From a virus: a stretch of DNA of 64,000 nucleotides. Below the pieces are notes generated by a model, which was not told the origin of the DNA, ran no database searches, and saw only the letters and a program-made list of their open reading frames with translations. A program made the translations under genes and the position numbers. Location: positions 32,001-96,000 of IMG/VR virus record IMGVR_UViG_3300042691_023183. One strand, 5' to 3'. The number at the start of each line of letters is the position of its first letter. The first letter of the stretch is position 1. This document shows, one piece after another, positions 19,153-45,711 of this stretch.

Positions 19153-19155
19153 AAC

Positions 19156-23724: not shown

Positions 23725-23727
23725 AAA

Positions 23728-25397: not shown

Positions 25398-25400
25398 AAC

Positions 25401-27040: not shown

Positions 27041-27753
27041 TTTGATAGATAATTTAGTTGTTCTAGTTTTAGTTCCATGCTGGTACATCTATCGGTATTG
27101 ATTGTACAATTTGCATGATAAAGTATTATTTTCGACGTGTCTATTGTATCTAAATTTGATAGTTGATGTGTACATTTATAACATCCATGGTTATTTGAAC
27201 ATACGTTACATTGTATCGTGTCATCTCTATACGATAAAGACGTATATTGAAGATATCTAAAATCAAATATACCAATTTCTATTGAAGGAATGGTATTCGA
27301 AAAGTAATTAATAACGTCCATATCATGAACATCATTATGTTTACAACTAGTTAATAATTTTTCAAAAAAGTCCACCATCGTATCGTTACATTCTATTTTA
27401 CAAAATGCTGGATTTACAAATGTATCTGATGGATCTTCATCTTCTTTTAAAACAGTAAACATTTTATCATATGATGTTAAATCAATTGGAGAAAAGAATT
27501 TAATGTCAACATCTGTCCATATAATTTTTCGTCCCAGATTTTCTTTGGTTGTTTGTAGCATCAATCTTGTTTTATTATGTAAACAGTCGATGTATCCATC
27601 CGTATTATAATCACCATTTCCATCAACAGTAGTTTCAAATATACGAAGATCGTAGTTATTTTCATTAAACTTTATAAATGATGGATAAAAGTGTTTGTTA
27701 AATATTTCATCCATTTGAGGAGAGTATAAACAATATACCGGAGTTTTTTCCAT
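27037..27753 (-). CDS. Nucleotide-diphospho-sugar transferase (GT77-like)
   Basis: WTDVDI DxD, N.AF, D..VIN, YHANC. Confidence 0.7.
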   Translation of the reverse strand: MEKTPVYCLYSPQMDEIFNKHFYPSFIKFNENNYDLRIFETTVDGNGDYNTDGYIDCLHNKTRLMLQTTKENLGRKIIWTDVDIKFFSPIDLTSYDKMFTVLKEDEDPSDTFVNPAFCKIECNDTMVDFFEKLLTSCKHNDVHDMDVINYFSNTIPSIEIGIFDFRYLQYTSLSYRDDTIQCNVCSNNHGCYKCTHQLSNLDTIDTSKIILYHANCTINTDRCTSMELKLEQLNYLSK

Positions 27754-27755
27754 AA

Positions 27756-28964: not shown

Positions 28965-28967
28965 ATG

Positions 28968-30281: not shown

Positions 30282-30282
30282 A

Positions 30283-30972
30283 TTAATTTCCAAAAAGTTT
30301 GTTGTCTCTTTCCTTGATCATGTCAGAATACTTTTGCGCATTAGATGCAAAGTACCCTTCCTTTTGTTTCATTAAATCTTCAATAGTTTTTCCGGACTTT
30401 GGTTGTGTTGCGGGTGGTGTGTTTGTATCTGTACTTCCAAATCCACCTTCACCACGATTTGTAGCATCTAATTCGTCAACAAGAACAAATTCGATGTTTT
30501 CAACTCTGGTAACTTTAAGTTGACAGATTTTATCACCCATATTGTAAATCTTAGTTTCGTTGACGTTGCCCACAATTTGTTGGGAAATAATACTATAATC
30601 CTCTGGTTGAAATATATACTTAAATCGAAGTAGAACTTCACCACGATAATCTGCATCAACCAATCCAATACAGTTAGCTAGGATTAAATTGTATTTACTG
30701 ACACTGCTACGAGGAAATGCAAGTACATCATGATCGATATCTGTATAACCAAAATTACTATATACACGATCTTTTTGAACTGCAAGTTTTAGATTAGTGC
30801 GATATTGAATATAGTCAATACGTTTATATCCTCCAATTTCATAATTTTTTTCACCAACAATTTCAGGTCCACTCGTTGCGATGATATCATAACCTGTTGC
30901 TCTATCAGTTCCTTTCTTAGGCAGGTTATCCACTGTTTGATATGTTTCATTTTTTAATATTTGAATTTTCAT
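30283..30972 (-). CDS. dut: Trimeric dUTPase
   Basis: ATGYD, PRSS, GLVDADYRGE, ICQL, RGEGGFGST motifs. Confidence 0.93.
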   Translation of the reverse strand: MKIQILKNETYQTVDNLPKKGTDRATGYDIIATSGPEIVGEKNYEIGGYKRIDYIQYRTNLKLAVQKDRVYSNFGYTDIDHDVLAFPRSSVSKYNLILANCIGLVDADYRGEVLLRFKYIFQPEDYSIISQQIVGNVNETKIYNMGDKICQLKVTRVENIEFVLVDELDATNRGEGGFGSTDTNTPPATQPKSGKTIEDLMKQKEGYFASNAQKYSDMIKERDNKLFGN

Positions 30973-31940
30973 ACAATTTCCTTTTGAACTTTTTCAATAT
31001 CAACTTTACCGAAATCTACTCCCATACAATTATCTGGTTGTATCTGTCCAACTTGTTCTTTGGTGGTGTGCAGAGTGAACTTTTCACTTGGTGTGAAATT
31101 TGCCAACGTGTAATCCATGGCTTTGATAAACTGGTTACACATATTTACGGCGTTCAATCCACCTTCGTTTAGTGCCCATCTACGTCCTTCTTCACCACGA
31201 CGAGTACGTTCTTCGTTTGGAATTAGGTACCAATACATCATGGCTTCTGCCAAATCACGGGGGTCAACCATATCATCAAAAATGTATGGAGTTTGATTAC
31301 TACCATGCATATCGTGAACCCTTGGCCACACTGGCTTTGCCCACACACCGTGTTTCTTATACTTTCCAACGTTATTGGTTCCAAACTCTTTGGTGAATTC
31401 AACAGGGTTACCATTGTCATCCACTTGTCCAATTTGATCTTGTAGACCACCGGTAACACTCACAATAACAGGAGTACCTGACATAATGGACTCGTTGACG
31501 CTCAATCCGAATCCTTCGTTACTGGAAGCGTTAATTGTTACATCTGCCAAGTTATACATCAAGTTCATTTCTCCCGGTGTGATTTTACGTTGAGAGAAGT
31601 ATACGACATAATCACGACAAATGGCTTCCTTGACTGCGGGAAGATCAGTACCGTGACCGTTTTGACCAACGACTTCAGTATGTAGAATCAAACACACCTT
31701 CTTTGCGTCTTCTTTAGAAAGACTATCACAGAAAATTCGGTATGCGAGAATTACATTTGAAACCTGTTTACGTTTGACGTTACGACTATTGAAAAAGATT
31801 GTATAATCGTATTCGTTACCGTTAAAGAATCTCTTCTTTCCTTCAATTAGGTTTTTATCGGACGTATCTACTGGTCGAAATACCTCACTATTAATTCCGT
31901 GGGGTACATAATGTAAAAGTGTTTTTCCTTTGATTGGCAT
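30969..31940 (-). CDS. GT4 glycosyltransferase, C-terminal half
   Basis: VPHGIN, NSRNVKRK, SNEGFGLS..E, TGGLQDQ. Confidence 0.85.
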   Translation of the reverse strand: MPIKGKTLLHYVPHGINSEVFRPVDTSDKNLIEGKKRFFNGNEYDYTIFFNSRNVKRKQVSNVILAYRIFCDSLSKEDAKKVCLILHTEVVGQNGHGTDLPAVKEAICRDYVVYFSQRKITPGEMNLMYNLADVTINASSNEGFGLSVNESIMSGTPVIVSVTGGLQDQIGQVDDNGNPVEFTKEFGTNNVGKYKKHGVWAKPVWPRVHDMHGSNQTPYIFDDMVDPRDLAEAMMYWYLIPNEERTRRGEEGRRWALNEGGLNAVNMCNQFIKAMDYTLANFTPSEKFTLHTTKEQVGQIQPDNCMGVDFGKVDIEKVQKEIV

Positions 31941-32775: not shown

Positions 32776-33693
32776 TTAATTGTCGTCTTTATCGTCTTTG
32801 GTTTCTTTTCCGTCACAGTTTGTCTTGTAGTGTGTACAATACTTACAGTTCTTTTTAGCTTTACCCGGAACTTTTGGATAATAACCATCTTCCTTATAAG
32901 TTCCTTCCGGTGTAAAACATTCATCAATAAAGGATGTAAACGTCACCAACGACTTTGAAACATAGTTCTTAGCATTAGCCGGTTCAAAGATTTGAATTCG
33001 ATTTTGTGGAAACGCAACATTCTCATACAACTTACGCTTTAGAATAAAAAACTCGACATCAATGGAATCCAAAGGAACATTGAACTGTTTGGAGTAAAAC
33101 GCCTTGTACAACAATAACTGTGAATACTTACTTTCATCAGCAACCTGATACTTGTTCCACCCCATCGAACTTGTTTTGAAGTCCCAAATCTTGTATTTAC
33201 CAGAAGTCTTATCACGTAGAATCAAGTCAACATACGCAATAAACCGAACGTTATTCTTGATCGGTACATCCAATGGAACTTCAACTCCAATGAATTCATA
33301 CTTCCGACTCGGAAAATACTTGATACGGTTGGCGGAACTACTAAAGGTCTTTAGAATATCTTCACCATCAAACATGAATTCGGTAACGTCATCATCCGTA
33401 TATGGTTCCTTCATGTTATCTTTTTCTTCGGAAAGAATACGGGTAAATTCCTCACGGAACTTTTTAACCAAATCTATTTCGTCTGCCACTTCTGCACCAT
33501 CGGTGTACAATGACTTAATATAATCTTGAAGTGTATTATGAATAGCGGTACCAAAACAAGTGTTTAGACTCGACTCATATACACGCAAACCTTTCAAATA
33601 ATTAAGATACCAACTATGAGGACACTTGAACCATCCTGAATATTGTGAAAAGCTGACCGTCTTTTTGTTTTTTTCTTCTATAATTTCAGACAT
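32776..33693 (-). CDS. PD-(D/E)xK Cas4/RecB-like exonuclease
   Basis: SFSQ...CP, FGTAIH, E, YVDL, WDFKTS, QLLLY, C-terminal CKYC...C (Fe-S). Confidence 0.88.
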   Translation of the reverse strand: MSEIIEEKNKKTVSFSQYSGWFKCPHSWYLNYLKGLRVYESSLNTCFGTAIHNTLQDYIKSLYTDGAEVADEIDLVKKFREEFTRILSEEKDNMKEPYTDDDVTEFMFDGEDILKTFSSSANRIKYFPSRKYEFIGVEVPLDVPIKNNVRFIAYVDLILRDKTSGKYKIWDFKTSSMGWNKYQVADESKYSQLLLYKAFYSKQFNVPLDSIDVEFFILKRKLYENVAFPQNRIQIFEPANAKNYVSKSLVTFTSFIDECFTPEGTYKEDGYYPKVPGKAKKNCKYCTHYKTNCDGKETKDDKDDN

Positions 33694-33744
33694 ACTTATA
33701 TACAGTATCATGTACGAACTTGAAAGTCTACATCTTCTAATTCT

Positions 33745-34500
33745 ATGCGAAATATAATATTTACCCTACTGTTTACTTTAACCACTTACGCCAACGGTGT
33801 CTTTTATGTCCAAAAATCAAGTGGAGAAACCGTTTTGGAAAATGTGGCAAATAATGTTTTGTCCACTAATTCTCCGGTTGTGGGTCAAACATACACCGCC
33901 AACGGACAAAATTATGCTTTCAAAACTTCAACCAACTCGGAAGTAACTGTGGCATTTTCCAACGACGTGTTTGTTAAAGTCAAAGAATCGGCCCATGTAA
34001 CCCTTGATAATTTTGATCAAACCTTCATCAATATCTCTTCTCTACCAGAAAAAGCTAAGTACGAGACATACTCAAAATCGTTATCGTTAATCGAAGGTGA
34101 ACTTGATGTCTACTCAGATCAAGGTGGCAATTCCGAATCAATCTCTACCATCAACACCAAACTTGCATCGATTATACTGTCCAAGGGCAAATTCGTCGTA
34201 CAAGCCGATGATCGTACCACCGTGATTATTGTTCTTGAAGGGTCCGCTGTTATTTTGGATAATTCATCCAAGAGAAAAGAAAGCGTTAAAGCCAACCAAA
34301 CCGTGGTGATTGTACCCGCTCCAAAGTTTCAAGGACGTGGAGTGGATACCATGCGTCGTGGCAATATTTTCTCAATTAAAGAAACTGTGAATGGTGACTC
34401 TGAGTCCTATCTATTGGGAGTTAATGCCGTAGTTGAAGATTCCAAGAACGTTCGATTTTGTATAATCGACAAAAACGTTCGTGGTGTTAAAATTAATTGA
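33745..34500 (+). CDS. Secreted FecR-domain protein
   Basis: Signal peptide; KT...S...AFSN...V...A.V, L.EG.L, INT.LA, G.FVV, T.I.VLEGS pattern. Confidence 0.7.
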   Translation: MRNIIFTLLFTLTTYANGVFYVQKSSGETVLENVANNVLSTNSPVVGQTYTANGQNYAFKTSTNSEVTVAFSNDVFVKVKESAHVTLDNFDQTFINISSLPEKAKYETYSKSLSLIEGELDVYSDQGGNSESISTINTKLASIILSKGKFVVQADDRTTVIIVLEGSAVILDNSSKRKESVKANQTVVIVPAPKFQGRGVDTMRRGNIFSIKETVNGDSESYLLGVNAVVEDSKNVRFCIIDKNVRGVKIN

Positions 34501-34768: not shown

Positions 34769-37315
34769 ATGTATCAAAATATTTATATCGACAAGAAGAC
34801 TGAAACCGTACACCTTTGGGATGACCAAAAGGGATATGTTACGTTCCCGATGCCTAAGTATGCGTACCGTAAGAAGACGGGTGGACGTTATCGTTCTGTT
34901 TATGGCGACGAGCTAGAAAAGGTCACCAATTTTAATCGTAATGATCCTTCAATCTTTGAAGGTGATGTTCCTCCCGAAACACGGGTATTGATTGACGCTT
35001 ACGAAGATAGTGATGAACCTTCCAAAGGACATCGTGTGGTGTTTTTCGACATTGAGGTCAGTTCTGAAGGTGGATTTCCTGTTATTGAAGAAGGTGACAA
35101 GGAACTGACGGCTATTGCTTTGTATGACGGTGCTGCATCCAAGTATACAGCGTTCATCTTGGATAAAGATGGAAAACTTAAAGACAGTGAAACTTCCGAT
35201 ACGATTATTCAAAGTTTTGATAATGAGGAATCGTTGATCAGTCACTTTATGAATAAGTGGGAGGAAATTCAACCCACAATTATCACCGGTTGGAACATCG
35301 ACGGGTTTGACGTTCCTTATCTGTATAATCGAATCAAACGGGTGATGGGTACAAACTTCGCTAAGAGGTTGAGTCCTATCCGTGAATGTTACTACAACAA
35401 TTTCTCTAAACGAATGGTTGTTGCTGGTATTTCGTGTATGGACTATATCGAACTATACAAGAAGTTCAGTGGCAAAAACGAACCAAGTTATACACTCGGT
35501 GCGATTGGTAAGAAAGTGGTCAATATTGACAAGATCACTTATACCGGAAGTCTTAATGATTTGTACCGGGATGACATTCAAAAGTACATTGAGTACAACC
35601 TGAATGACGTTAAGATCGTGGTTGCTCTTGATAAGAAACTACAATTCATCGATCTTGCACGTCGTATTTGTCATACTGGACATGTTGGTTATGAACAGTT
35701 TGGAACTTCATCACGTTATCTTGAAGGTGCTATATTGATGTATCTACGTCGTCAAGGTCGTGTTGCTCCTAATAAACCATTGGAAGGACGTGAAGAATAT
35801 GAACAACGAATGGAAGACGGTGAAGAAGGATTTGAAGGAGCTTATGTTAAACCTCCTGTTCCGGGTCGTTATGATTGGGTGTTTGATTTGGATCTCACAT
35901 CAATGTATCCGAATATCATCATCAGTCTTAACATCAGTCCTGAGACCAAGATAGCTAAGGTCGAAAACTGGAACGCTGAAGATTTTGTTCGTGGTAAATT
36001 GACCGAGGTAATTCTCAGTGGTCAAAAGTATTCTGCTCAGGATTTCAGTGAAATGTTGATTCAGAATAACCTCAGCGTTGCTAGTAACGGAGCAGTGTAT
36101 AAACTTCCAAAGGGAGAAGGTGAAGAGGGTACTATTCCAAGTATTCTTATCAAGTGGTTCAATGAACGTAAAGAAATGCGTAAGTTGGCCAAGAAACACG
36201 CTGATGCTAAAGAATGGGAAATGTATGAGTTCTACGATCAACGTCAGAAGGTTCAAAAGATCTTGTTAAACTCCATTTATGGGTGTTTGGGTCTTCCCGT
36301 GTTTCGTTTTTATGATAAGGACAACGCTGAGGCAGTTACCTTGAGTGGTGTCAGCATCATTAAGACTGCGAATATGGCAATCAACCAGTATTACAAGAAT
36401 GTCTTGGGTGAAGAGGCTAAGGGTAACGATTATGTTATCTACGTTGATACCGATTCTTGTTTTGCCAGTGCGTTGCCTATTATCAAGAAAACGATGCCGG
36501 ATATTGATATGGAAGATGAAAAACAAATGACGGAGGCGATTCTCAAGGTAACTGGAGAAGCTCAGACTTATGTCAACAAGATGTTTGACATTATGTCACT
36601 TCGTTTGTTTAACGTGAAGAAACATAGGTTTGACGCAAAACAAGAGGTGATTGCCAAGTCATCGTTTTGGTTGGCGAAGAAACGGTATTGTCAGTTCATT
36701 ATTAACAAGGGTGGAGTTGAGTGTGACGAATTGGAAGTTAAGGGTATTGACGTTGTTAGAACGTCGTTTCCTGCCAAGTTTCGTACCTTTATGAAACAGT
36801 TCTTGATTGATCTTTTGAAGAAGGTTGATCAGGAGACCATTAACAACAACATTCTACAGTTCAAAGAGGACATGAAGGACTTTGGTGTTATTGAACTGGC
36901 GAAGAATACCAGTGTAAAGTTTAAGAGTGATGCGACAAAAAAGGTGGATTACAATCCTAAGAGTCGTCAACCTTTTCAAATCATTTCAGGTACTCCTGCT
37001 CAGGTTAAGGCAGCATTGTATTATAACGATCTATTGGCACAGTTTAATTTGACCAAGATTATTCCTCCGATATTTCATGGTCAGAAGATTAAGTGGGTAT
37101 ATCTAAAACAGAATGAGTATGGTATTGAGTGTCTTGCTATGAAGGCGGACGGTACTGATCCTCAACCGATTATGGATATTATCACAAAGTATATGGATCG
37201 TGATACCATGTATGAACAAGAGTTGAAGAGTAAACTTGTTGATTTTTACGAGGTGTTAAATTGGGAGTACCCAAATTCAAATTGGAAAGCTGCATCTGCA
37301 TTTTTTGAGTTTTGA
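34769..37315 (+). CDS. Family B DNA polymerase (T4 gp43-like)
   Basis: Exonuclease DIE, GWNIDGFD, YNLND; polymerase DLTSMYP, KILLNSIYG, YVDTDS, KKRY, KGID. Confidence 0.97.
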   Translation: MYQNIYIDKKTETVHLWDDQKGYVTFPMPKYAYRKKTGGRYRSVYGDELEKVTNFNRNDPSIFEGDVPPETRVLIDAYEDSDEPSKGHRVVFFDIEVSSEGGFPVIEEGDKELTAIALYDGAASKYTAFILDKDGKLKDSETSDTIIQSFDNEESLISHFMNKWEEIQPTIITGWNIDGFDVPYLYNRIKRVMGTNFAKRLSPIRECYYNNFSKRMVVAGISCMDYIELYKKFSGKNEPSYTLGAIGKKVVNIDKITYTGSLNDLYRDDIQKYIEYNLNDVKIVVALDKKLQFIDLARRICHTGHVGYEQFGTSSRYLEGAILMYLRRQGRVAPNKPLEGREEYEQRMEDGEEGFEGAYVKPPVPGRYDWVFDLDLTSMYPNIIISLNISPETKIAKVENWNAEDFVRGKLTEVILSGQKYSAQDFSEMLIQNNLSVASNGAVYKLPKGEGEEGTIPSILIKWFNERKEMRKLAKKHADAKEWEMYEFYDQRQKVQKILLNSIYGCLGLPVFRFYDKDNAEAVTLSGVSIIKTANMAINQYYKNVLGEEAKGNDYVIYVDTDSCFASALPIIKKTMPDIDMEDEKQMTEAILKVTGEAQTYVNKMFDIMSLRLFNVKKHRFDAKQEVIAKSSFWLAKKRYCQFIINKGGVECDELEVKGIDVVRTSFPAKFRTFMKQFLIDLLKKVDQETINNNILQFKEDMKDFGVIELAKNTSVKFKSDATKKVDYNPKSRQPFQIISGTPAQVKAALYYNDLLAQFNLTKIIPPIFHGQKIKWVYLKQNEYGIECLAMKADGTDPQPIMDIITKYMDRDTMYEQELKSKLVDFYEVLNWEYPNSNWKAASAFFEF

Positions 37316-37317
37316 TT

Positions 37318-38088
37318 ATGAATATTGCTATTTTGATGTCAGGAAGAACCGAACGGTTTAATTTTGTTTTAGATTTGAATAAAAGCAATTTGATCCAACC
37401 ACTTTTGGATTCGGGTCATAAAGTTGATATGTTTGGATCTTTCTGGGATGAACATGATACAGAATCATGTATTCACGCATTTCAACCCCATTTGAAAGTT
37501 ACTGACATTGAAACGTTTACACCTTTCACTTGTGGTATGATTAATAATTTTAACGAACATGAAGAACGTATTAAGAAGTATCAAAATGATAGTAAACTTT
37601 CAAATACATTGTATTGGCTTTATAAGTTGAATCGTTTATATAAAATTGTTAAACAGTATGAACGTATGAATAGTATAAAATATGACTATTATGTTCGTAT
37701 TCGTCCTGACGTTGGATTGAGATATCCATTTAATGTAGATGATTTAAATCACTTAACGGATGATTCTATTATTACCCACGTTGACCACGTAGTTAATTCG
37801 GGTGGTAAGATATATGGGTGTGGAGAAGGATGGATAGATGACAATTTCTGTATTGCTAAACAACATCCATTTGAGGTCTATTGTAGTGTCTACGATGATA
37901 TACTGTCACTCTGTGATATGTGTCAGAACTGTATATCTCATTTGTTGTTTAAAAAACAATTTGAATTGAAGAATATAAAAACATTGCTTCCTAATTCGCC
38001 ATTAATTATAGTTCATAAAACCCATATGGGTATACAACTGTTTACTTACTTTGAATATGTGTACCCAAATTTTGGTGTTACCCGGTAA
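37318..38088 (+). CDS. Glycan-locus hypothetical protein (GT-like)
   Basis: IAILMSG..R, KYDYYVRIRPD, DDNFCI; pattern typical of polysaccharide-locus proteins. Confidence 0.6.
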   Translation: MNIAILMSGRTERFNFVLDLNKSNLIQPLLDSGHKVDMFGSFWDEHDTESCIHAFQPHLKVTDIETFTPFTCGMINNFNEHEERIKKYQNDSKLSNTLYWLYKLNRLYKIVKQYERMNSIKYDYYVRIRPDVGLRYPFNVDDLNHLTDDSIITHVDHVVNSGGKIYGCGEGWIDDNFCIAKQHPFEVYCSVYDDILSLCDMCQNCISHLLFKKQFELKNIKTLLPNSPLIIVHKTHMGIQLFTYFEYVYPNFGVTR

Positions 38089-38090
38089 GT

Positions 38091-38195
38091 GTGATTGAGT
38101 TAATTATTTTTGATTTGGATAAAGTTTTGGTTGAAACAAATATTGAAAATATGTGGGGTGGGAAAACTAGAAGAGTAAAAAATTATATTAAGTAA
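38091..38195 (+). pseudogene. Internally deleted HAD-family phosphatase remnant (34 codons)
   Basis: GTG start; translates MIELIIFDLDKVLVETNIENMWGGKTRRVKNYIK*, with HAD motif I (IIFDLDGVLV-like) and then an early stop. Confidence 0.65.
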
Positions 38196-38226
38196 AACGA
38201 TTAAATATAAATTAGTTATAATTGTT

Positions 38227-39438
38227 ATGATAACCAAATCGATAAAAGAACTTATTTTTGTTAACCGGAACACTGTGTTTTCTGGTAACATTGTTACATA
38301 TTATATTAAATCTAAAACGGATTTATTTGATGCGGCTAAAGCTATTGCATTGGGACAAAGTGTTGGGAACCCAGAAAAAAGATCCGAATTTGAAAGCAAC
38401 GAATTGTTTGAAACATTTTGTGCCAAAGTTATTATAGACGACGTTGATTTTTCTAAAAATGAAGGATCGGTTGATATTTATTATCCAGACTCCAATTTCA
38501 ATTATCAAGAAGATGGAATAACACATTTTTTAACCACTATTATGGGTGGACAAGTTGATATTGACATCATTCAAAAATGTCGAATAACAAACATACAGTT
38601 TTCAAATAAATTCACATCCATATTTAATGGACCGAATCTTGGTTTATATGAAATGCGGCAGTTGTGTAACATCAATGATAAAACACCGTTATTTGGTGGA
38701 ATTATCAAACCGAAAATCGGACTTAATGTAAATGATTATGTAGAAGTTGTTAAAATTTATGCGGATAATGGATGTAATTTTATCAAAGAGGATGAAATTT
38801 TATCAAATCAATCGTTTTGTTCAATTGAAAAACGACTTGAAAAGATTGGTGATTATCTTAGAACCAACAACATTAAGATGGTCTATGCACCATCGATAAC
38901 GTGTGACCATTTATATTTAGAGGACCGTATACGTAAAGTCCATAATATGGGAATAAACGGTATCCACATCAATATTCATAGTGGATACGGTGCATATAAA
39001 TTGGCAAAAGATCTTAATCTATCTATGTTTTTACATTATCAGAAAAGTGGAGATAGGTTATGGACAAATCCACAACACGATTATTCTATAGATGAATCAG
39101 TTTTGTTTGAAATTGCAAGTCGATGTGGATGTTCTACACTTCATGTTGGTATGATTGGTGGATATTTAAATAGCGATTCTGATAGTTTGAAGAAAACTAT
39201 AAAGAAACTAGTTGAATTAAATTCTGTGCCAGCTTTAAGTTGTGGAATGCATCCGGGGTTAATTGAATATATTAAATCCGAACTTGGTCATCCAAACTGG
39301 ATGGCAAATGTTGGTGGATCAATTTCATCACATCCGATGGGTAGTAAAGCTGGCGTAAAAGCGATGGTCCAATCGATTCAAAAAACATACGGTGATGAAT
39401 ATTACACAGCAATTGAAACGTGGGGATTAAAGAAATGA
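38227..39438 (+). CDS. RuBisCO-like protein (form IV-like RLP)
   Basis: GGIIKPKIGL, FIKEDE (carbamate Lys/Mg site), LHVG, LSCGMHPG, VGGSISSHPMG..AG.KA. Confidence 0.92.
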   Translation: MITKSIKELIFVNRNTVFSGNIVTYYIKSKTDLFDAAKAIALGQSVGNPEKRSEFESNELFETFCAKVIIDDVDFSKNEGSVDIYYPDSNFNYQEDGITHFLTTIMGGQVDIDIIQKCRITNIQFSNKFTSIFNGPNLGLYEMRQLCNINDKTPLFGGIIKPKIGLNVNDYVEVVKIYADNGCNFIKEDEILSNQSFCSIEKRLEKIGDYLRTNNIKMVYAPSITCDHLYLEDRIRKVHNMGINGIHINIHSGYGAYKLAKDLNLSMFLHYQKSGDRLWTNPQHDYSIDESVLFEIASRCGCSTLHVGMIGGYLNSDSDSLKKTIKKLVELNSVPALSCGMHPGLIEYIKSELGHPNWMANVGGSISSHPMGSKAGVKAMVQSIQKTYGDEYYTAIETWGLKK

Positions 39439-40160
39439 CTTTAAACGTTGTTATACCAGCTGCTGGTCTTGGTACTCGATTTAATACCACAATTCCAAAA
39501 CCTTTACTGGATGTTAATGGATCTCCGATGTTAGCGAGAGTTATAAATAACTTTCATCATCGTGATGTAAAGTTTTTTGTATGCATTCTTAAAGAGCATC
39601 AACAGAAATTTAATATCATAGATAATGTAAAAACATACTGTGACACATCATCGATCAACTATGTTATCATTGATGAACTTACAGATGGACCTGCTCGAAC
39701 ATCCTATTTTGTAAAACAACATATTAATGTCGATGAACCATTGATCGTGACAAATTGTGATCAGGTTATTTTTGATTTGGATTTGGATAAACTAACGTCT
39801 TTTTCAGAAAAGAAATCAGCAGATGGAGTCGTTGGGACGTTTTATTCAAATAGTCCAAAAAATAGTTATATTAGATTAAATGATGATGGGTTAGTTACAC
39901 AAGTTAGAGAAAAAGAGGTTATTAGTAATTATGCTACAAACGGACTTCATTTTTGGTCAAAAGGATCTTATTTCTTTGAGTCATGTGACGAAATGTTTTC
40001 TCGAAATGACAGAGTAAATAATGAGTTTTATGTTGGACCAAGTTACAACTATATGATCAACAAAGGAATGAAAGTTGTTCAATATTTTTTCAATGAACAT
40101 TTTCCAATAGGAATCCCACAAGATTTAGAGTTATTTAAAAAAATAGATGAAAATATTTGA
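39435..40160 (+). CDS. Sugar-phosphate nucleotidyltransferase
   Basis: IPAAGLGTRF, PKPL, TDGPA, NCDQ, EK, NNEFYV, IGIPQD; ATGA-coupled to the RLP. Confidence 0.88.
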   Translation: MTLNVVIPAAGLGTRFNTTIPKPLLDVNGSPMLARVINNFHHRDVKFFVCILKEHQQKFNIIDNVKTYCDTSSINYVIIDELTDGPARTSYFVKQHINVDEPLIVTNCDQVIFDLDLDKLTSFSEKKSADGVVGTFYSNSPKNSYIRLNDDGLVTQVREKEVISNYATNGLHFWSKGSYFFESCDEMFSRNDRVNNEFYVGPSYNYMINKGMKVVQYFFNEHFPIGIPQDLELFKKIDENI

Positions 40161-40473
40161 TTCAAAACCGTTTATGGATAAAGGCGGTTGGTTTATTGGA
40201 GATTTCGAACCAACTGTTTTTAAAACGACTGCATTTGAGGTTTCATACAAACTCCATTATAAAGGAGAGAGTTGGCCAACTCACCACCATAAGGTAAGTG
40301 AAGAAATAAACTTTCTAATTCGTGGTAGAATGACTATTAATGATGTAGTTATTAATGTTGGAACCATATTCATCATTGATCGATATGAATCGATAAAACC
40401 AGTATTTCTGGAAGATTGTGAACTAATTGTTGTGAAAGTTCCGTCTTCGAAAAATGACAAATATGAAGATTAA
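40147..40473 (+). CDS. Cupin-like small protein
   Basis: GWFIGDFEP, H.HK..E, VVKVPS..DKY. Confidence 0.75.
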   Translation: MKIFDSKPFMDKGGWFIGDFEPTVFKTTAFEVSYKLHYKGESWPTHHHKVSEEINFLIRGRMTINDVVINVGTIFIIDRYESIKPVFLEDCELIVVKVPSSKNDKYED

Positions 40474-40475
40474 TT

Positions 40476-41108
40476 ATGAGCAATATAGATCAAAATTTAT
40501 ACGTTAAGAATACATCAAATGTTAATGGACTTTCTTATCTACCATCTTTCAAAAATGAATATGATAACGACGTTGACTGGCCCCGATGGTTTGATGTAAA
40601 AAACGGGATTCCAAATGAAATTAGTGATGCGAACAAAGAAGCATTGGATGATATTCTACGTAAGGTCAATGTAAAAAACGTCATTGAAATTGGTATTTCT
40701 CGTAATGATACAAGATCTTTTACCACACAACTACTTTACGCAAAGAAAGGAATTTATTGTGGAATTGATATTGAGGACAAAACATTTTTGAATGATCATT
40801 TAAATCGTGTATATACAATCAAAGCTAATTCACATGATCAATCAACTATACGTTCATATTTAAATACCATTGGATTGAAAAAATGTTCTGTATTATTTAT
40901 CGATGGATGGCACTCGGTTAATACTGTTATTAATGACTGGAAATATACAGATTTGCTTGATGACAATGGTGTCGTTATTTTTCATGATACTAACTATCAT
41001 CCGGGTCCAAATCTTATTATTGATGCAATTGATCGATCCATGTATAGGGTAGTAAAGTATTGTGATGGTGGTTGTGATTGGGGTATTGCAGCTGCGTATA
41101 ATTTATGA
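40476..41108 (+). CDS. Class I SAM methyltransferase (Methyltransf_24-like)
   Basis: IEIG, GID, LFIDGWHS, GVVIFHD. Confidence 0.82.
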   Translation: MSNIDQNLYVKNTSNVNGLSYLPSFKNEYDNDVDWPRWFDVKNGIPNEISDANKEALDDILRKVNVKNVIEIGISRNDTRSFTTQLLYAKKGIYCGIDIEDKTFLNDHLNRVYTIKANSHDQSTIRSYLNTIGLKKCSVLFIDGWHSVNTVINDWKYTDLLDDNGVVIFHDTNYHPGPNLIIDAIDRSMYRVVKYCDGGCDWGIAAAYNL

Positions 41109-41941
41109 TACACGTATATATTCTAACATATAATAATAACCAAATCTTAAACGGATGGGCATTAAAATCATTACACGAATCAGAGTATGACCGTGATAAA
41201 GTCAAGGTTTTTGTAATAAACAATCACAGCAATATTGTTATTGAGGAACAATATAAACAAACTGTTACTGTATTAAACAATGTATTACGTCCAGATTTTT
41301 CAACTGGACATTTGGCCAGAAATTGGAATCAGGCAATAATGAGAGGATTTGTTAATTTGAATAATCCTCAATGTGAATATGTTATCACATGTCATAACGA
41401 TACCGTCTTCAAAAAAGACTGGTATAATAAATTAATGAAACATGCACGTATATACAACTATATTCAGTTAGGTGCTGGCGATCAATTTCAAATGTTTAGC
41501 CCAATTGCTGTAAAATATATTGGCATGAACGATGAACGATTTTGTGGAAACGGTGTACAAGAAGCAGATTATTTGTTACGTGCCAGATTATATTTTGGAC
41601 AACATTCGACTATTAATGACTATAGTCATGATCGAATTCATAATCCAATTGAAGAAAATGACGTGATCGAAACGACACCCCTTGGATGGCAACATTCAAA
41701 AGACATCCACGCATTGTATGTACGATTTCATCCGATTTGTTATACTATTTTTAAGAAAAAGTGGGGAATATCTCCTATCGAATGGAGTCGTTATGATGTT
41801 CCATTTGACAGTCTTGAACCACTAATTGATAACTATATTTTATACCCATATTTTGAACGGGATATCATTACATTAAAACAACAAAAATACGTTTGTGAAG
41901 ATACTTCGCTTGATGAAATTTGTAAACTAAGAACCAGATGA
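41105..41941 (+). CDS. GT-A fold glycosyltransferase
   Basis: ILTYN, INNH, LARNWN, HND, IGMNDERF..EAD. Confidence 0.7.
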   Translation: MIHVYILTYNNNQILNGWALKSLHESEYDRDKVKVFVINNHSNIVIEEQYKQTVTVLNNVLRPDFSTGHLARNWNQAIMRGFVNLNNPQCEYVITCHNDTVFKKDWYNKLMKHARIYNYIQLGAGDQFQMFSPIAVKYIGMNDERFCGNGVQEADYLLRARLYFGQHSTINDYSHDRIHNPIEENDVIETTPLGWQHSKDIHALYVRFHPICYTIFKKKWGISPIEWSRYDVPFDSLEPLIDNYILYPYFERDIITLKQQKYVCEDTSLDEICKLRTR

Positions 41942-42399
41942 AACTCATATCACACAGAGGCAACTTACATGGACCAAATCCGGATAAAGAAAACCATCCA
42001 GATTACATTACCTCTGCATTAAAAGCTGGACATGATGTTGAAGTTGATGTATGGTATCAGAATAACAAGTGGTATTTGGGACATGATAACCCTGAATATC
42101 AGGTTAAGTATGATTTTCTAGCAGAACGTAAGTTTTGGCTACATGCCAAGAATGGAGATGCGTTTCACCTATTGTTACAAGATTTTACGTTGAATGTATT
42201 TTGGCACACCGATGAAGATTGGGTATTGACAAGTAAACGATATATTTGGACTTATCCTACCAAACAATTATATCCTGAAAGCATCTGTGTAATGCCAGAA
42301 CGGGGTTGGATGGGTGATCTTACAAAATGCTATGCAGTATGTACTGACTTCGTAAAAGAATTTCCAGAACAGTTTGAACAAGAATATTGGCTAAATTAG
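41938..42399 (+). CDS. GDPD/PI-PLC-like phosphodiesterase
   Basis: ISHRGN, EN, DVEVDVW, LGHD, WLHAKN, FWH, VCTD. Confidence 0.8.
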   Translation: MKLISHRGNLHGPNPDKENHPDYITSALKAGHDVEVDVWYQNNKWYLGHDNPEYQVKYDFLAERKFWLHAKNGDAFHLLLQDFTLNVFWHTDEDWVLTSKRYIWTYPTKQLYPESICVMPERGWMGDLTKCYAVCTDFVKEFPEQFEQEYWLN

Positions 42400-42401
42400 T
42401 T

Positions 42402-43241
42402 ATGATTAACGTAAGTTTATATGATGGATCATTTGCACATGCATATTCGTGTTCAAATGGAGATTTGAATATTTTATCAAAACATGTACATTTTGATAGA
42501 GAAAATATACATGACATTGCGTTTTTTACGGATGGGTATGTTACGTGTGATAGTATAGATAACCATAACCACAAACGAAAAATTGCGTGGTTATTGGAAC
42601 CAAGATCTATTTTACCTGATTTGTATAGTTTTGATATAGACTGGAGTAAATTTGATTTTATTTTAACTCACGATAAACAGTTCATTAAAGACGTTCAATC
42701 GCATACAAATGCCAATGTGTATTGGTATCCTGTAGGAGGAACTTGGCTATATGAAAGTGATTGGGTCATATATCCAAAGACTAAAAACTTATCTATCATT
42801 GCGTCTGGAAAACGGGAAACTGTTGGTCACAAAATGAGACACGATATTATTGATCGTTTTCGTAGTCATTTTGATGCAATACACGGACGTGGTTATCAAT
42901 GTGTCGAATATAAATTTGAATCGTTGGCACCATATAGGTTTTCAACTATTATTGAAAACGCTCGTATAGATGACTATTTTAGTGAGAAACTTATTGATTG
43001 TCTACTGACGGGTACCATACCAATTTATTATGGAACCAACAACATAGGAAATTATTTTGACACGAACGGTATGTTGTTGATCGATAACGTTGATTCGTTT
43101 AGTAATATAATTCCGATGTTAAACGAAGAGTATTATGAATCCAAAATGGACATAATTCTTGAAAACTACAATCGTGCCAAAGAATACGTCAATACCGAAG
43201 ACTGGATTTATAACAAGTATAAAGATATACTGTTTGTATGA
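42402..43241 (+). CDS. GT10 alpha-1,3-fucosyltransferase-like
   Basis: LLEP, YRFSTIIEN, DYFSEKLIDC...GTIPIYYG. Confidence 0.85.
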   Translation: MINVSLYDGSFAHAYSCSNGDLNILSKHVHFDRENIHDIAFFTDGYVTCDSIDNHNHKRKIAWLLEPRSILPDLYSFDIDWSKFDFILTHDKQFIKDVQSHTNANVYWYPVGGTWLYESDWVIYPKTKNLSIIASGKRETVGHKMRHDIIDRFRSHFDAIHGRGYQCVEYKFESLAPYRFSTIIENARIDDYFSEKLIDCLLTGTIPIYYGTNNIGNYFDTNGMLLIDNVDSFSNIIPMLNEEYYESKMDIILENYNRAKEYVNTEDWIYNKYKDILFV

Positions 43242-43936
43242 TTACAGATTTGTTTAACATACTGGATTCTGTTGAGATAATCAACCTTGATGAAAGAACT
43301 GATAGGTTTGATAGAATATCAACACATCTAAATAAAATCGGATTTAACGGACGTTTTAATAGGTTTTCAGCTATAAAACGTGAACATACAGAACTTACAC
43401 GTTCTGAGAATGCAAGACTTGGGTGTTTTTTAAGTCATTGTAACGTGATTGAAAACGCTTATAATAAAAAACAAAAATATGTACTTGTTCTTGAAGATGA
43501 CTGTGAATTTATAGAAAATAACATCAGATACTTCAATTTTCAGAGTCTATGTGAAACCATTCAAAATATTCAGTTTGATATGGTATATCTAGGAGCAACG
43601 TACTATCATTTAGAATCAACATCATTTTCACAGTTGGATAAAGTTAAACCATATGGGTGTAATGCCGCGTTTTGCGTAATTATTAATATTCAGTCAATGT
43701 TTGAGAAAATAATTAATGAATACGTGGATGAAGATCATATTACAAATTTGGCAAAAAACAACCGTACAGATTATTCTAAAACCACGATTGATGGAGCATA
43801 TAATTTTTTGAATCCGGTACGATATGCCACGGATCCAATTCTAGCGACTCAATTTTCATCATTCAGTGATATAGAACAGGTTGACGTGTCGTATCCACTG
43901 GTAACCATGTGGAAAGATGCAAAATCGAAGATATAA
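43238..43936 (+). CDS. GT25-like glycosyltransferase
   Basis: INLDERTDR, RFSAI, GCFLSH, VLEDD, YLG. Confidence 0.85.
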   Translation: MITDLFNILDSVEIINLDERTDRFDRISTHLNKIGFNGRFNRFSAIKREHTELTRSENARLGCFLSHCNVIENAYNKKQKYVLVLEDDCEFIENNIRYFNFQSLCETIQNIQFDMVYLGATYYHLESTSFSQLDKVKPYGCNAAFCVIINIQSMFEKIINEYVDEDHITNLAKNNRTDYSKTTIDGAYNFLNPVRYATDPILATQFSSFSDIEQVDVSYPLVTMWKDAKSKI

Positions 43937-43993
43937 AAACTGGACATTTCAGGAAATCATAGTAAAGTATAGGAACAATAAACGAAAAAAGTT

Positions 43994-44737
43994 ATGACAA
44001 AGACAAATCTACAAAAATTCATTAGCAAGTATTCTCTTAACGGAGAAGTAACCGCAGTTAAGTGGAATCTTTCCACCAAGGACAATCAGATCAGTCTGAG
44101 TGCCATCACAAACGACAAGAGTTTGGTTTATGATGTGAACTGGAAGAATGTCGAAGGACTTTCTGCTGATTATGAGATTGGTGTGTATGATACCGATAAG
44201 TTGCAGAAGATGTTGAAGGCTCTTGGTGAGGATATTACCATGACAGTTAATCAGAATGAGGGACGTGTGACTTCATTGTCATTTTCTGATGGTACTTCGG
44301 AAATTCAGTTTATGACCGCTGAGTTGACTGTGATTCCCAAGTCTTCACGATTGAAGGGTCAACCCGCGTACAACTTTGAAATCGATCTCACTAAGGATTT
44401 CATTGCCAAGTACCGTAGTGCCAAGGATGCGTTGTCTGACGAATCCAAGTTCACCCTTCTCATGAACAAGAAGAGTAAGAAGGTTCAGTTGGTTATCGGA
44501 TACGCTTCAATCAACAGCAATCGTGTGACTTTGGATGTTCCTATTAAGAGTGGAACTGCGAAGCTCGAGAAGTCGTTGAACTTCAACGCTGACTTCCTCA
44601 AGAGTGTGTTGGATGCTAACAACGAGTGTGAAAATGCGGTGTTGAAGGTTTCCGAGTCAGGATTGGCAACTGTTCAGTTCAGTACTGATGCCTTTGAAGC
44701 TGTTTATCATTTCGGTCCAGTTCAAGCTAACGACTAA
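43994..44737 (+). CDS. DNA sliding clamp (gp45-like)
   Basis: Size and IGVYD..KL pattern; immediately upstream of the clamp loader. Confidence 0.75.
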   Translation: MTKTNLQKFISKYSLNGEVTAVKWNLSTKDNQISLSAITNDKSLVYDVNWKNVEGLSADYEIGVYDTDKLQKMLKALGEDITMTVNQNEGRVTSLSFSDGTSEIQFMTAELTVIPKSSRLKGQPAYNFEIDLTKDFIAKYRSAKDALSDESKFTLLMNKKSKKVQLVIGYASINSNRVTLDVPIKSGTAKLEKSLNFNADFLKSVLDANNECENAVLKVSESGLATVQFSTDAFEAVYHFGPVQAND

Positions 44738-44742
44738 GTATT

Positions 44743-45711
44743 ATGGATGCCTTTTTTGAAGAGGTTAGTCACACCAACGATGAAAAGGTTCATAGTTTGT
44801 GGGTCGAGAAGTATCGACCCACAACCCTTGAAAACTATATCGGTAATGAGAACATTATCACGACTATCAAGTCGTATATTGATCAACAGAACATTCCTCA
44901 TTTGATGTTGTATGGTGGTGCGGGTACTGGCAAGACTACTCTTGCTAAACTTCTTACCAAACAAATCAATTGTGATGTTTTGTATATCAATGCGTCTGAT
45001 GAAAACAAGGTTGATAACGTTCGAACCAAGATCAAGACTTTTGCGTCTTGTGTGGGTATCAAACCGTTGAAGGTTATCATTCTTGACGAGTGTGATTATA
45101 TGTCACCTGAGGCACAAGCGGCTCTTCGTAACCTGATGGAGACGTTTAGTATGTCTACAAGGTTCATTCTTACGTGTAACTATCATGAGAAGATGATTCT
45201 TCCGATTGTGTCACGTTGTATGACTTTTGAGATTGCTCCGATGACTAAGGTTTCGGTGGCAGTTCATATGACCAAGATTCTTAAGACTGAGAATGTTGAG
45301 TATCAGAATGATGACTTGGCTTATATTGTTAACACGTACTATCCTGATATTCGTAAGATTATCAATGTGACACAACAGTCTACCTTTGAAGGTAAGTTGA
45401 AAATCAATAAGGAGTCATCCTTAAAGACTGATACTCACCAAAAGTTGATTGACATGATCAAGAGTGGTATTGGTAAGCCTACTGCGTTCAATGAGATCCG
45501 ACAGTTTCTTGCGGATCAACGTATTAAGGTGTACGATGATTACTTTGCGGTTCTATACCAGAAGGTAGATGAATACGCTAACGGTAAACAAGCGATTGCT
45601 ACAATCATCATTTCGGAATATATGTATCAGTGTAGTTTGTTGATTCCTCCTTTGAAGGAGATTGCGTTGATGGCGTGTATCAGCAAACTTCTGAACGATT
45701 TACGAAAATGA
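44743..45711 (+). CDS. Clamp loader ATPase subunit (gp44/RFC small)
   Basis: WVEKYRP, GAGTGKTT, NASDE, ILDECD, SRC, PDIRK. Confidence 0.95.
   Translation: MDAFFEEVSHTNDEKVHSLWVEKYRPTTLENYIGNENIITTIKSYIDQQNIPHLMLYGGAGTGKTTLAKLLTKQINCDVLYINASDENKVDNVRTKIKTFASCVGIKPLKVIILDECDYMSPEAQAALRNLMETFSMSTRFILTCNYHEKMILPIVSRCMTFEIAPMTKVSVAVHMTKILKTENVEYQNDDLAYIVNTYYPDIRKIINVTQQSTFEGKLKINKESSLKTDTHQKLIDMIKSGIGKPTAFNEIRQFLADQRIKVYDDYFAVLYQKVDEYANGKQAIATIIISEYMYQCSLLIPPLKEIALMACISKLLNDLRK

What the first reader, a model, noticed from the sequence alone, without database searches (positions are those of the whole stretch)
38091..42399. Candidate undescribed nucleotide-sugar cassette: HAD, RLP, nucleotidyltransferase, cupin, methyltransferase, GT, phosphodiesterase
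Seen: from the RLP onward the genes overlap or are at most a few bases apart: RLP, NTP-transferase, cupin, SAM methyltransferase, GT-A protein and HRG-type phosphodiesterase, with a HAD remnant in front. Inference: the order reads as a pathway. The RLP rearranges a sugar (bis)phosphate, HAD removes a phosphate, the NTase activates the product to an NDP-sugar, the cupin epimerises, and GT/MTase transfer and decorate. I know of no characterised pathway with this enzyme set.
Basis: inference. Interest (0 to 1): 0.8.

Follow-up and report, generated by a model that had tools for sequence, protein, structure and literature searches.

The report
Phage RuBisCO-like protein sugar-activation cassette
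A T4-like water phage carries a tight gene cluster in which a RuBisCO-like enzyme is coupled to a sugar-activating enzyme, and the same pairing recurs in hundreds of viruses and in SAR11, tiny archaea and bacteria, pointing to an undescribed route to a building block for surface sugars.

Summary
Window 37312-43936 is one operon-like block of overlapping genes between DNA polymerase and the sliding clamp. It holds an RLP, an NTP-transferase, a small metal cupin, a methyltransferase, glycosyltransferase-like genes, a minimal GDPD phosphodiesterase, and the stump of a deleted HAD-NTase fusion gene.

The core recurs widely. Of the best 80 of 361 viral RLP loci, 77 have the NTase within 3 kb, 65 the cupin and 67 the GDPD. 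Of 27 cellular loci (SAR11, DPANN, CPR, Verrucomicrobiae), 24 have an NTase nearby. Gene order is permuted.

Natural fusions exist, all through the NTase: RLP-NTase, NTase-cupin, NTase-GDPD, HAD-NTase. In loci without the RLP there are NTase-RpiB fusions.

The RLP belongs to a distinct, well-supported clade. It keeps the metal/carbamate site and the P1 phosphate site but has Gln at the H294 position and Tyr at the K334 position, so it is not a carboxylase.

Phage RLPs were reported in 2019 with unknown function. I found no paper linking them to nucleotide-sugar genes.

Best reading: an uncharacterised RLP-dependent nucleotide-sugar pathway for glycan synthesis. The substrate and product remain unknown.

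The parts
37312..38088 (+). 258-aa putative transferase (family 'c3'; weak DUF7796/GT15 likeness, phrog_13607)
   Evidence: The same family lies within 5 kb of the clade RLP in 16 of 41 loci, including SAR11 and Woesearchaeota.
38092..38195 (+). Stump of an internally deleted HAD-NTase fusion gene (HAD motif I plus the last residues of the NTase domain); has no start codon
   Evidence: alignment to L002 6562-7971.
38227..39438 (+). RuBisCO-like protein, 403 aa, of the Gln294/Tyr334 clade
39435..40160 (+). Nucleotidyltransferase (NTase clade A), 241 aa from the ATG; the ORF also opens at GTG 39420
   Evidence: best solved relative 4evw, E 3e-26.
40147..40473 (+). 108-aa single-domain cupin with conserved HxH...E metal motif
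40476..41108 (+). SAM methyltransferase-like gene (variable accessory)
   Evidence: Methyltransf_24, 25.6 bits, just under the cut-off. Present in L003/L004 and L006 only among the first 15 loci.
41105..41941 (+). GT2-like glycosyltransferase (variable accessory)
   Evidence: 20.7 bits, under the cut-off. No counterpart in the related loci.
41938..42399 (+). Minimal glycerophosphodiester-phosphodiesterase-like protein, 153 aa
42387..43241 (+). GT10/fucosyltransferase-like glycosyltransferase
   Evidence: 26.9 bits against a cut-off of 23.9.
43238..43936 (+). GT25 glycosyltransferase
   Evidence: 34.2 bits against a cut-off of 24; phrog_2835.

Best explanation
The region is a real glycan-precursor cassette of a T4-like aquatic myophage. 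Its conserved core is a four-gene module: a form-IV-like RLP of a distinct clade, a nucleotidyltransferase, a small metal cupin and a minimal GDPD.

The proposed working is as follows.
1. The RLP uses its intact Lys-Lys / carbamyl-Lys / Asp / Glu metal site and its P1 phosphate site to enolise a phosphorylated keto-sugar, probably a pentulose phosphate. It thereby isomerises or epimerises that sugar.
2. The cupin performs a further metal-dependent isomerisation.
3. The NTase converts the resulting sugar phosphate into an NDP-sugar.
4. The 258-aa transferase-like protein and the variable GT and methyltransferase genes build that sugar into a glycan. The target would be either the infected cell's surface or the virion.
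5. The GDPD supplies or trims a phosphodiester-linked component.

Shown: gene anatomy, residue conservation, clade identity, co-occurrence, fusions.
Inferred: substrate, order of steps, product, target.
For: (1) Co-occurrence from the RLP side. Of the best 80 of 361 IMG/VR loci, within +/-3 kb: NTase 77/80, cupin 65/80, GDPD 67/80, all four 51/80.
(2) Co-occurrence from the cupin side. Of the best 80 of 499 loci, within +/-7 kb: NTase 80/80, RLP 68/80, GDPD 59/80.
(3) Across 41 loci with a clade RLP (window, 13 viral, 27 cellular), an NTase lies within 5 kb in 38. Two of the three misses are on contigs of 3-4 kb.
(4) Cellular loci are genuine. The SAR11 locus L038 sits next to pheT and lepA on a 175-kb contig. 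L042 lies on a 2.28-Mb Verrucomicrobiae chromosome.
(5) Gene order is permuted among loci.
(6) Natural fusions: RLP-NTase (P0005, 667 aa, clade signature kept), NTase-cupin (L016, 352 aa), NTase-GDPD (L025, 505 aa), HAD-NTase (L002, L003, L011, DSL-LC03).
(7) In RLP-less cupin loci the NTase is fused to an RpiB/LacAB sugar-phosphate isomerase in 2 of 10 examined and to a HAD phosphatase in 8 of 10.
(8) Invariant in 13 aligned clade members: the K175, K177, K201, D203, E204, H327, S379, G381, G403 and G404 positions.
(9) The surroundings are glycan genes everywhere: GDP-mannose dehydratase, UDP-GlcNAc 2-epimerase, GT2, GT17, GT61, FkbM/TylF methyltransferases.
Against: - No enzyme was assayed, and no substrate or product can be read from sequence.
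- No kinase or mutase is conserved in the loci, so the entry metabolite is unclear.
- The NTase next to the RLP is not one orthologous group. Clade A is found in phage, CPR and Verrucomicrobia. Clade C is found in SAR11 and DPANN. The NTase domain fused to the RLP in P0005 is closest (46-47%) to the HAD-fused clade B, which is deleted in this window.
- The cupin is absent from the SAR11 and DPANN loci. NTase + cupin (+GDPD) occur without an RLP in 12 of 80 loci and in Synechococcus phages Bellamy and SynMITS9220M01. So the RLP is not obligatory for those partners.
- L022 has the RLP with none of the partners within 8 kb.
- Some 'cellular' loci sit on MAG or SAG contigs that could be phage DNA, for example L018 and L019.
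Confidence: 0.6

Rival explanations
1. The module makes a nucleotide-activated phospho-alcohol or phospho-ketose (a CDP-X type donor). This would be transferred as a phosphodiester-linked, teichoic-acid-like decoration. The GDPD would produce the phosphorylated precursor from a phosphodiester or edit the product, and the 258-aa protein would act as a phosphotransferase.
For: - The GDPD catalytic motifs are invariant and the GDPD is a top partner: 67/80 loci, a full-length GDPD in 7 DPANN loci, and an NTase-GDPD fusion.
- The NTase also scores on IspD (28.7 bits against a cut-off of 27) and on MobA-like models.
- In SAR11 and DPANN a second NTase sits beside the GDPD.
Against: - The NTase aligns over most of its length with sugar-1-phosphate NTases: NTP_transferase residues 11-187, RmlA residues 7-178, and 4evw full length.
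- The IspD match covers only the N-terminal nucleotide loop, residues 9-63.
- No known phosphotransferase family was detected.
Confidence: 0.2
2. The RLP and cupin are a salvage pair like the Rhodospirillum rubrum MTA-isoprenoid shunt (an RLP isomerase plus a cupin methylsulfurylase). They would recycle 5-methylthio- or 5-deoxy-pentose phosphates, unrelated to the glycan genes around them.
For: An RLP working with a cupin is an established pair (passages of PMC6302742). The RLP keeps the P1 phosphate site expected for a ketose 1-phosphate.
Against: - No IF-2B/MtnA-type isomerase is present in the 127-kb contig.
- The RLP scores far below the MtnW models (126 against 409; 88 against 514).
- The RLP is fused to an NTase in P0005.
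- SAR11 and DPANN loci have the RLP but no cupin.
- The surroundings are always glycan genes.
Confidence: 0.1
3. The cassette makes the sugar donor for hypermodification of the phage's DNA bases, as in T4-type glucosylation.
For: The cassette sits inside the replication module, between DNA polymerase and the clamp. A GT25 gene matches a PHROG named glucosyltransferase. The contig carries a thymidylate-synthase-family gene.
Against: - The same RLP/NTase/GDPD set lies in cellular genomes among GT17, GT61 and DUF4422 surface-glycan genes.
- The window has a second island of about 15 kb with Glf, GT4, GT6, GT11, GT2 and GT1 genes, which is typical of polysaccharide assembly.
- The thymidylate-synthase match is full length at 281 bits. 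That neither shows nor excludes a hydroxymethylase.
Confidence: 0.05
4. The RLP is a working RuBisCO that boosts host carbon fixation.
For: The best solved relatives are form III and II/III RuBisCOs, with E-values from about 1e-27 to 1e-24.
Against: - H294 is Gln, K334 is Tyr, R295 is Lys and H298 is Asp, across the clade.
- The form III model scores 137 bits against a cut-off of 497.
- The clade is present in heterotrophic SAR11.
Confidence: 0.01

Closest known systems
Phage 'IV-like' RuBisCO-like proteins of Jaffe et al. 2019 (Mol Biol Evol, PMC6389311; abstract and passages read)
   Same: RLPs on Myoviridae-type contigs from many environments. They group with Beckwithbacteria sequences and lack some catalytic residues. 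My tree places a Beckwithbacteria locus (L021) in the same clade.
   Different: That paper leaves the function open and, in the passages I read, says nothing about neighbouring genes. Its supplementary figure of a curated phage genome could not be seen. The NTase/cupin/GDPD linkage, the fusions and the SAR11/DPANN loci are added here.
Rhodospirillum rubrum MTA-isoprenoid shunt: RLP isomerase plus cupin methylsulfurylase (passages of PMC6302742)
   Same: An RLP that shifts a carbonyl along a pentulose phosphate, working with a cupin.
   Different: That route has no NTase, GDPD or GT genes. This RLP clade has its own active-site signature and scores below every named RLP model.
Nucleotide-heptose pathway: GmhA isomerase, kinase, GmhB HAD phosphatase, HddC/HldE NTase (recalled from general knowledge; HddC model hit)
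   Same: The logic of sugar-phosphate isomerase, then HAD phosphatase, then NTase. The HAD-NTase and NTase-isomerase fusions seen here fit it.
   Different: The isomerase here is an RLP (or RpiB or cupin), not a SIS protein. No kinase is conserved. The HddC model scores 45 bits against a cut-off of 300.
Bifunctional type II phosphomannose isomerase / GDP-mannose pyrophosphorylase (ManC-type; recalled)
   Same: An NTase domain joined to a small metal cupin isomerase, as in the L016 fusion. The cupin model superposes on Thermococcus phosphomannose isomerase 7zvm (TM 0.67/0.70, rmsd 1.7 A).
   Different: The fold match is not specific; dioxygenases and seed globulins tie at Z 10-12. Sequence likeness to 7zvm is weak (E 7e-4).
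Cyanophage glycan cassettes without an RLP (Synechococcus phages DSL-LC03, S-CAM9, S-SM2, Bellamy)
   Same: They carry the same minimal GDPD (35-47% identity), HAD and NTase genes, and GTs. Bellamy also has the cupin (43%).
   Different: They have no RLP; none was found in 50,697 GenBank phage records. Class II aldolase, kinase and 'phosphoheptose isomerase' genes stand in those clusters instead.

Membership tests
RuBisCO large-subunit superfamily (PF00016) | Significant match to the catalytic-domain model above the curated cut-off | tested here: met
   93.7 bits against a cut-off of 30.1, E 1.6e-26. 99 solved chains match at E <= 0.001.
Bona fide RuBisCO (carboxylase, forms I-III) | Full catalytic set, including H294 and K334, and the R295/H298 phosphate site | tested here: not met
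   K175, K177, K201, D203, E204 and H327 are kept. H294 is Gln, R295 is Lys, H298 is Asp and K334 is Tyr. Residue numbering and roles are recalled from the literature. The form III model scores 137 against 497.
MtnW / YkrW 2,3-diketo-5-methylthiopentyl-1-phosphate enolase | Score above the equivalog cut-off of the NCBIfam models | tested here: not met
   NF007095 scores 126 against 409. TIGR03332 scores 88 against 514.
OiaX 3-oxo-isoapionate-4-phosphate decarboxylase RLP | Score above the equivalog cut-off | tested here: not met
   87 against 700.
Phage/Beckwithbacteria 'IV-like' RLP clade (Jaffe et al. 2019) | Monophyletic group of phage-borne RLPs together with Beckwithbacteria sequences, apart from other RLPs | tested here: met
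   A clade of 60 of 154 rows has SH-aLRT 99. It holds the window, all viral loci and the Beckwithbacteria locus L021. The paper's own sequences could not be compared.
Sugar-phosphate nucleotidyltransferase (PF00483) | Match above the cut-off, with the GxGxR...PK nucleotide loop | tested here: met
   36.7 against 21.2. The loop residues are invariant or nearly so in the 14-member alignment (P8, A10, G11, R15 and K22 invariant; G13 and P23 nearly). The full-length relative 4evw matches at E 3e-26. Substrate not testable here.
Cupin superfamily | Double-stranded beta-helix fold with the HxH(x)4E(x)6G motif | tested here: met
   The Pfam models are under their cut-offs. The motif is invariant in 13 sequences. 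The model has pLDDT 88.7, and 537 of 999 aligned chains reach Z >= 8; all 50 listed matches are cupin-fold proteins at Z 10.3-11.8.
Glycerophosphodiester phosphodiesterase (PF03009) | TIM-barrel GDPD fold with HR...E.D...HD catalytic and metal residues | tested here: inconclusive
   The window protein has no Pfam hit. Its profile matches GDPD 7e0v at E 0.003 over the motif region. The motif residues are invariant. The fold matches GDPDs at Z 10.6 with 140 of 153 residues aligned to 1o1z. The protein is about 90 residues shorter than solved GDPDs, and activity is unknown.
   Only motif I and the last residues of the fused NTase remain. About 415 codons are missing and there is no start codon.

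The most novel reading that the evidence does not exclude
The Gln294/Tyr334 RLP clade is the committed isomerase or epimerase of a so far unknown nucleotide-sugar pathway. One example would be a kinase- and mutase-free route from a pentose-phosphate intermediate to an NDP-pentofuranose or NDP-pentulose. The pathway would be shared by T4-like and jumbo aquatic phages, SAR11, DPANN archaea and CPR bacteria. This would be the first anabolic, glycan-building role for the RuBisCO superfamily. It would also explain why phages carry RLPs.
Probability: 0.4. Interest if true: 0.85.

Novelty: new variant of a known kind. Interest (0 to 1): 0.72.

Why it matters
RuBisCO-like proteins are known from methionine salvage, the MTA-isoprenoid shunt and apiose breakdown. 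The large phage-borne clade reported in 2019 has had no proposed function.

The linkage shown here gives that clade a concrete biochemical hypothesis that can be tested directly. The evidence is hundreds of loci, three domains of carriers, and five kinds of natural fusion through the NTase.

The carriers matter too. SAR11 is among the most abundant organisms in the ocean, and its surface-glycan island is a main target of phage selection. DPANN and CPR cells depend on their surfaces for attachment to hosts. A shared, phage-mobilised sugar pathway would bear on phage-host recognition in all of them. It could also add a new donor sugar to glycobiology.

Tried and rejected
- Complex prediction of the RLP with the NTase (alignments A3, A4): score 0.00, no verdict. 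It counts neither way.
- Promoter and terminator scan of 36900-44800: 54 promoter-like sites against 44.2 +/- 7.4 in shuffles, and 4 terminator-like sites against 3.2 +/- 2.0. Uninformative.
- blastn of the cassette against 50,697 GenBank phages: one 150-nt match, in the GDPD gene of DSL-LC03. tblastn of the RLP against the same set: no match.
- VIA-align second look for the cupin: all top rows are tied at Z 10.3-11.8, so no functional class can be picked.
- tRNA scan of the window: none found.
- Search of the contig for an IF-2B/MtnA-type isomerase: none, on a contig rated 36% complete. Search for a second HAD-NTase copy: only the window's own NTase.
- Literature searches that found nothing relevant:
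  - 'RuBisCO-like' + nucleotidyltransferase + cupin: 0 papers.
  - 'RuBisCO-like protein' + nucleotidyl: 2 unrelated papers.
  - form IV / RuBisCO / glycosyltransferase / hypervariable region / SAR11: 2 unrelated papers.
  - 'IV-GOS': 1 review.
  - RLP + viral + auxiliary metabolic: 1 unrelated paper.
  - 'RuBisCO-like' + Pelagibacter: 7 papers; one was opened (PMC6302742) and PMC1821046 had been read, and the rest were judged from titles and abstract openings. None appeared to concern this locus.
- The earlier-findings tool was not open.
- The idea that one NTase orthologue always partners the RLP was rejected by the NTase tree.

Full report
**What the window is.**
The window lies in a 126.8-kb IMG/VR viral contig rated 36% complete. 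It carries a T4-type replication module. The DNA polymerase (34769-37315) has its best GenBank relative in Microcystis phage Mel-JY01, at 44.8% identity. The sliding clamp and clamp loader follow at 43994-45711. The finding sits between polymerase and clamp.

**Anatomy.**
From 37312 to 43936 nine + strand ORFs and one gene stump follow one another. Between the ORFs from the RLP onward there are overlaps of 4-19 nt or a 2-nt gap. In order they are:
- a 258-aa transferase-like protein
- a gene stump
- the RLP
- an NTase
- a 108-aa cupin
- a methyltransferase-like protein
- a GT2-like protein
- a 153-aa GDPD-like protein
- a GT10-like protein
- a GT25 protein

Pfam clearly supports the RLP, NTase, GT10 and GT25 calls. 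The methyltransferase, GT2 and cupin are under the curated cut-offs, and the 153-aa protein has no hit.

AlphaFold models built on 12-13 homologues are confident, at pLDDT 88.7 and 90.9.
- The cupin model matches cupins; 537 of 999 aligned chains reach Z >= 8.
- The 153-aa model aligns 140-150 of its 153 residues to GDPDs at Z about 10.
- In both families the catalytic-type motifs are invariant.

The stump at 38092-38195 matches the first and the last residues of the 469-aa HAD-NTase fusion protein of locus L002. The sequence resumes homology just before the RLP start.

**The RLP.**
Its best solved relatives are form III and II/III RuBisCOs, with E-values from about 1e-27 to 1e-24, followed by MtnW enolases at about 1e-20. 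No named NCBIfam model comes near its cut-off.

The RuBisCO residue numbering and the roles of these residues are recalled from the literature.
- Kept: the positions of K175, K177, K201, D203, E204, H327, S379, G381, G403 and G404.
- Changed: H294 is Gln, R295 is Lys, H298 is Asp and K334 is Tyr.

So the metal/carbamate enolisation site and the P1 phosphate site are intact. The carboxylation and hydrolysis residues and the P2 site are not.

How widespread the clade is:
- Among 1.84 billion cluster representatives only 40 match at E <= 1e-30.
- 21 of the 42 representatives of at least 340 aa that I examined share Gln at the 294 position and Tyr at the 334 position.
- In a tree of 154 rows these sequences and all locus sequences form one clade of 60 rows (SH-aLRT 99), apart from the other 94 RuBisCO/RLP representatives.

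**Co-occurrence.**
A first scan found 15 viral loci. All had the NTase and cupin, and 13 had the GDPD. Of the other two, one is cut by the contig end and one has no GDPD in reach.

Profile scans then showed the scale:
- 361 IMG/VR stretches encode the RLP. Of the best 80, within +/-3 kb, 77 have the NTase, 65 the cupin, 67 the GDPD and 51 all four. One has the RLP alone.
- Starting from the cupin (499 stretches, best 80, +/-7 kb): 80 have the NTase, 68 the RLP and 59 the GDPD.

These sets overlap each other and contain near-identical contigs. The counts are therefore loci, not independent events.

Gene order varies: RLP-NTase-cupin, NTase-cupin-RLP-GDPD, cupin-NTase-RLP-GDPD and GDPD-NTase-cupin-RLP.

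**Cellular carriers.**
A scan of one genome per prokaryotic species found 34 loci. Of these, 27 carry a clade RLP. They come from:
- Pelagibacteraceae single-cell genomes
- Woese-, Nano-, Pace- and Micrarchaeota
- Patescibacteria, including Beckwithbacteria
- a Verrucomicrobiae chromosome
- Sphingobacteriales, Balneola and Phycisphaerales

24 of the 27 have an NTase within 5 kb.

In SAR11 locus L038 the genes GT17, GDPD, NTase, RLP, NTase and the 258-aa family follow pheT and lepA on a 175-kb contig. GT61, methyltransferase, RmlD-like and DUF4422 genes come after them.

DPANN loci have RLP-NTase, then a second NTase beside a full-length GDPD and the 258-aa family. The Verrucomicrobiae locus is a bare RLP-NTase-cupin set preceded by an unknown 222-aa gene.

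Some MAG contigs may be phage DNA. L019 is a 372-kb contig with a phage-like gene order.

**Fusions.**
The NTase is the hub.
- RLP-NTase: P0005, 667 aa, with both Pfam domains and the full clade signature.
- NTase-cupin: L016, 352 aa. Two further stop-free segments hold both domains; these were not checked further.
- NTase-GDPD: L025, 505 aa.
- HAD-NTase: L002, L003/L004, L011, L080, L124 and Synechococcus phage DSL-LC03.

I examined 10 of the 12 RLP-less cupin loci. L134 looks the same as L133 and was left out. L129 has an unfused NTase. In those 10:
- the NTase is fused to an RpiB/LacAB sugar-phosphate isomerase in 2 (E 8e-36 and 2e-33)
- it is fused to a C-terminal HAD phosphatase in 6
- it is fused to an N-terminal HAD in 2

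So where the RLP is missing, a classical sugar-phosphate isomerase or a phosphatase is attached to the NTase. This fits a pathway of sugar-phosphate rearrangement, dephosphorylation and nucleotidyl transfer.

**Limits on the simple story.**
- The NTases fall into several clades. Clade A goes with the cupin and includes the window. Clade C is RLP-adjacent in SAR11 and DPANN. Clade D lies beside the GDPD there. Clade B is HAD-fused.
- The NTase domain fused to the RLP in P0005 is closest to clades B and C. The window has lost its clade B copy.
- Most viral loci among the first 15 also lack a clade B copy yet keep all four core genes. I therefore regard the window's cassette as intact in its core.
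- The cupin is absent from SAR11 and DPANN loci.
- No kinase or mutase is conserved.
- The NTase's best solved relative, 4evw, is a structural-genomics protein of unknown substrate. RmlA, ManC and HddC follow at E about 1e-8.

**What it is for.**
The surroundings are glycan-assembly genes in phages and cells alike. The window has a second island at 17165-31940 on the minus strand, with UDP-galactopyranose mutase, GT4, FkbM, HtrL, GT6, GT11, GT2 and GT1 genes. Cultured Synechococcus phages carry related cassettes with the same minimal GDPD, HAD and NTase genes but no RLP. I therefore favour glycan synthesis over DNA modification.

**Prior knowledge.**
Jaffe et al. 2019 reported about 80 phage RLPs grouping with Beckwithbacteria and left their function open (abstract and passages; supplements not seen). 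The 2007 GOS paper noted new RuBisCO-homologue branches in ocean data (passages). The RLP-plus-cupin pair of the R. rubrum shunt is the nearest worked-out precedent (passages). Searches for papers joining RLPs with nucleotidyltransferases, cupins or SAR11 glycan islands found nothing relevant.

**Verdict.**
Several details are wrong or unproven. The HAD is dead here. The cupin is probably not an NDP-sugar epimerase. The GDPD was overlooked as a core member. Substrate, product and target are open.

Noticed in passing
window 17165-31940, minus strand: A second, larger glycan island of about 15 tightly packed genes. It includes UDP-galactopyranose mutase (264 bits), GT4, an FkbM methyltransferase, HtrL/YibB, GT6, GT11 (fucosyltransferase family), GT2 and two GT1 genes, plus a dUTPase-like gene at 30283-30972. 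With the cassette, the window holds more than 20 glycan genes.
   Followed up: partly
protein P0055: A 583-aa protein joins an N-terminal TIR domain to a complete RuBisCO-family protein. Lys is kept at the K175 and K334 positions, but Phe replaces K201 and Cys replaces H294. It lies outside the clade studied here. A TIR-RuBisCO fusion looks like a possible defence or signalling protein.
   Followed up: no
proteins P0029 and P0051: These are fusions of an IF-2B-family domain (the family of ribose-1,5-bisphosphate / methylthioribose-1-phosphate isomerases) to a RuBisCO with the full catalytic set. That would put two steps of the archaeal AMP pathway in one chain.
   Followed up: no
window 41938-42399 and its family (alignment A2): The GDPD-like proteins are only 138-160 aa, yet they align across the whole length of 217-250-aa GDPD barrels. 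This looks like a stripped-down barrel that keeps all catalytic motifs. Seventeen GenBank Synechococcus phage records carry it.
   Followed up: partly
L019 (contig CAVVMJ010000010.1, 372 kb) and L018: These contigs are binned as bacterial MAGs. They carry GDPD-NTase-cupin-RLP in the phage order and at about 50% identity to the window. They may be jumbo-phage or prophage DNA rather than cellular genes.
   Followed up: no
G000:C1:107058-108158 (outside the window): A 380-aa open frame matches thymidylate synthase over the model's full length (281 bits). I did not determine whether it is ThyA or a hydroxymethylase.
   Followed up: no
window 32776-33711 (-) and 33745-34500 (+): A PD-(D/E)XK nuclease gene and a FecR-domain protein lie just upstream of the DNA polymerase. 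The FecR-domain protein has a hydrophobic N-terminus that looks like a signal peptide (not tested).
   Followed up: no
L022 (66-kb contig, uncultured bacterium): This is the only long-flank cellular locus where the clade RLP stands without an NTase, cupin or GDPD within 8 kb. Its RLP is the sister of the Verrucomicrobiae L042 RLP.
   Followed up: no
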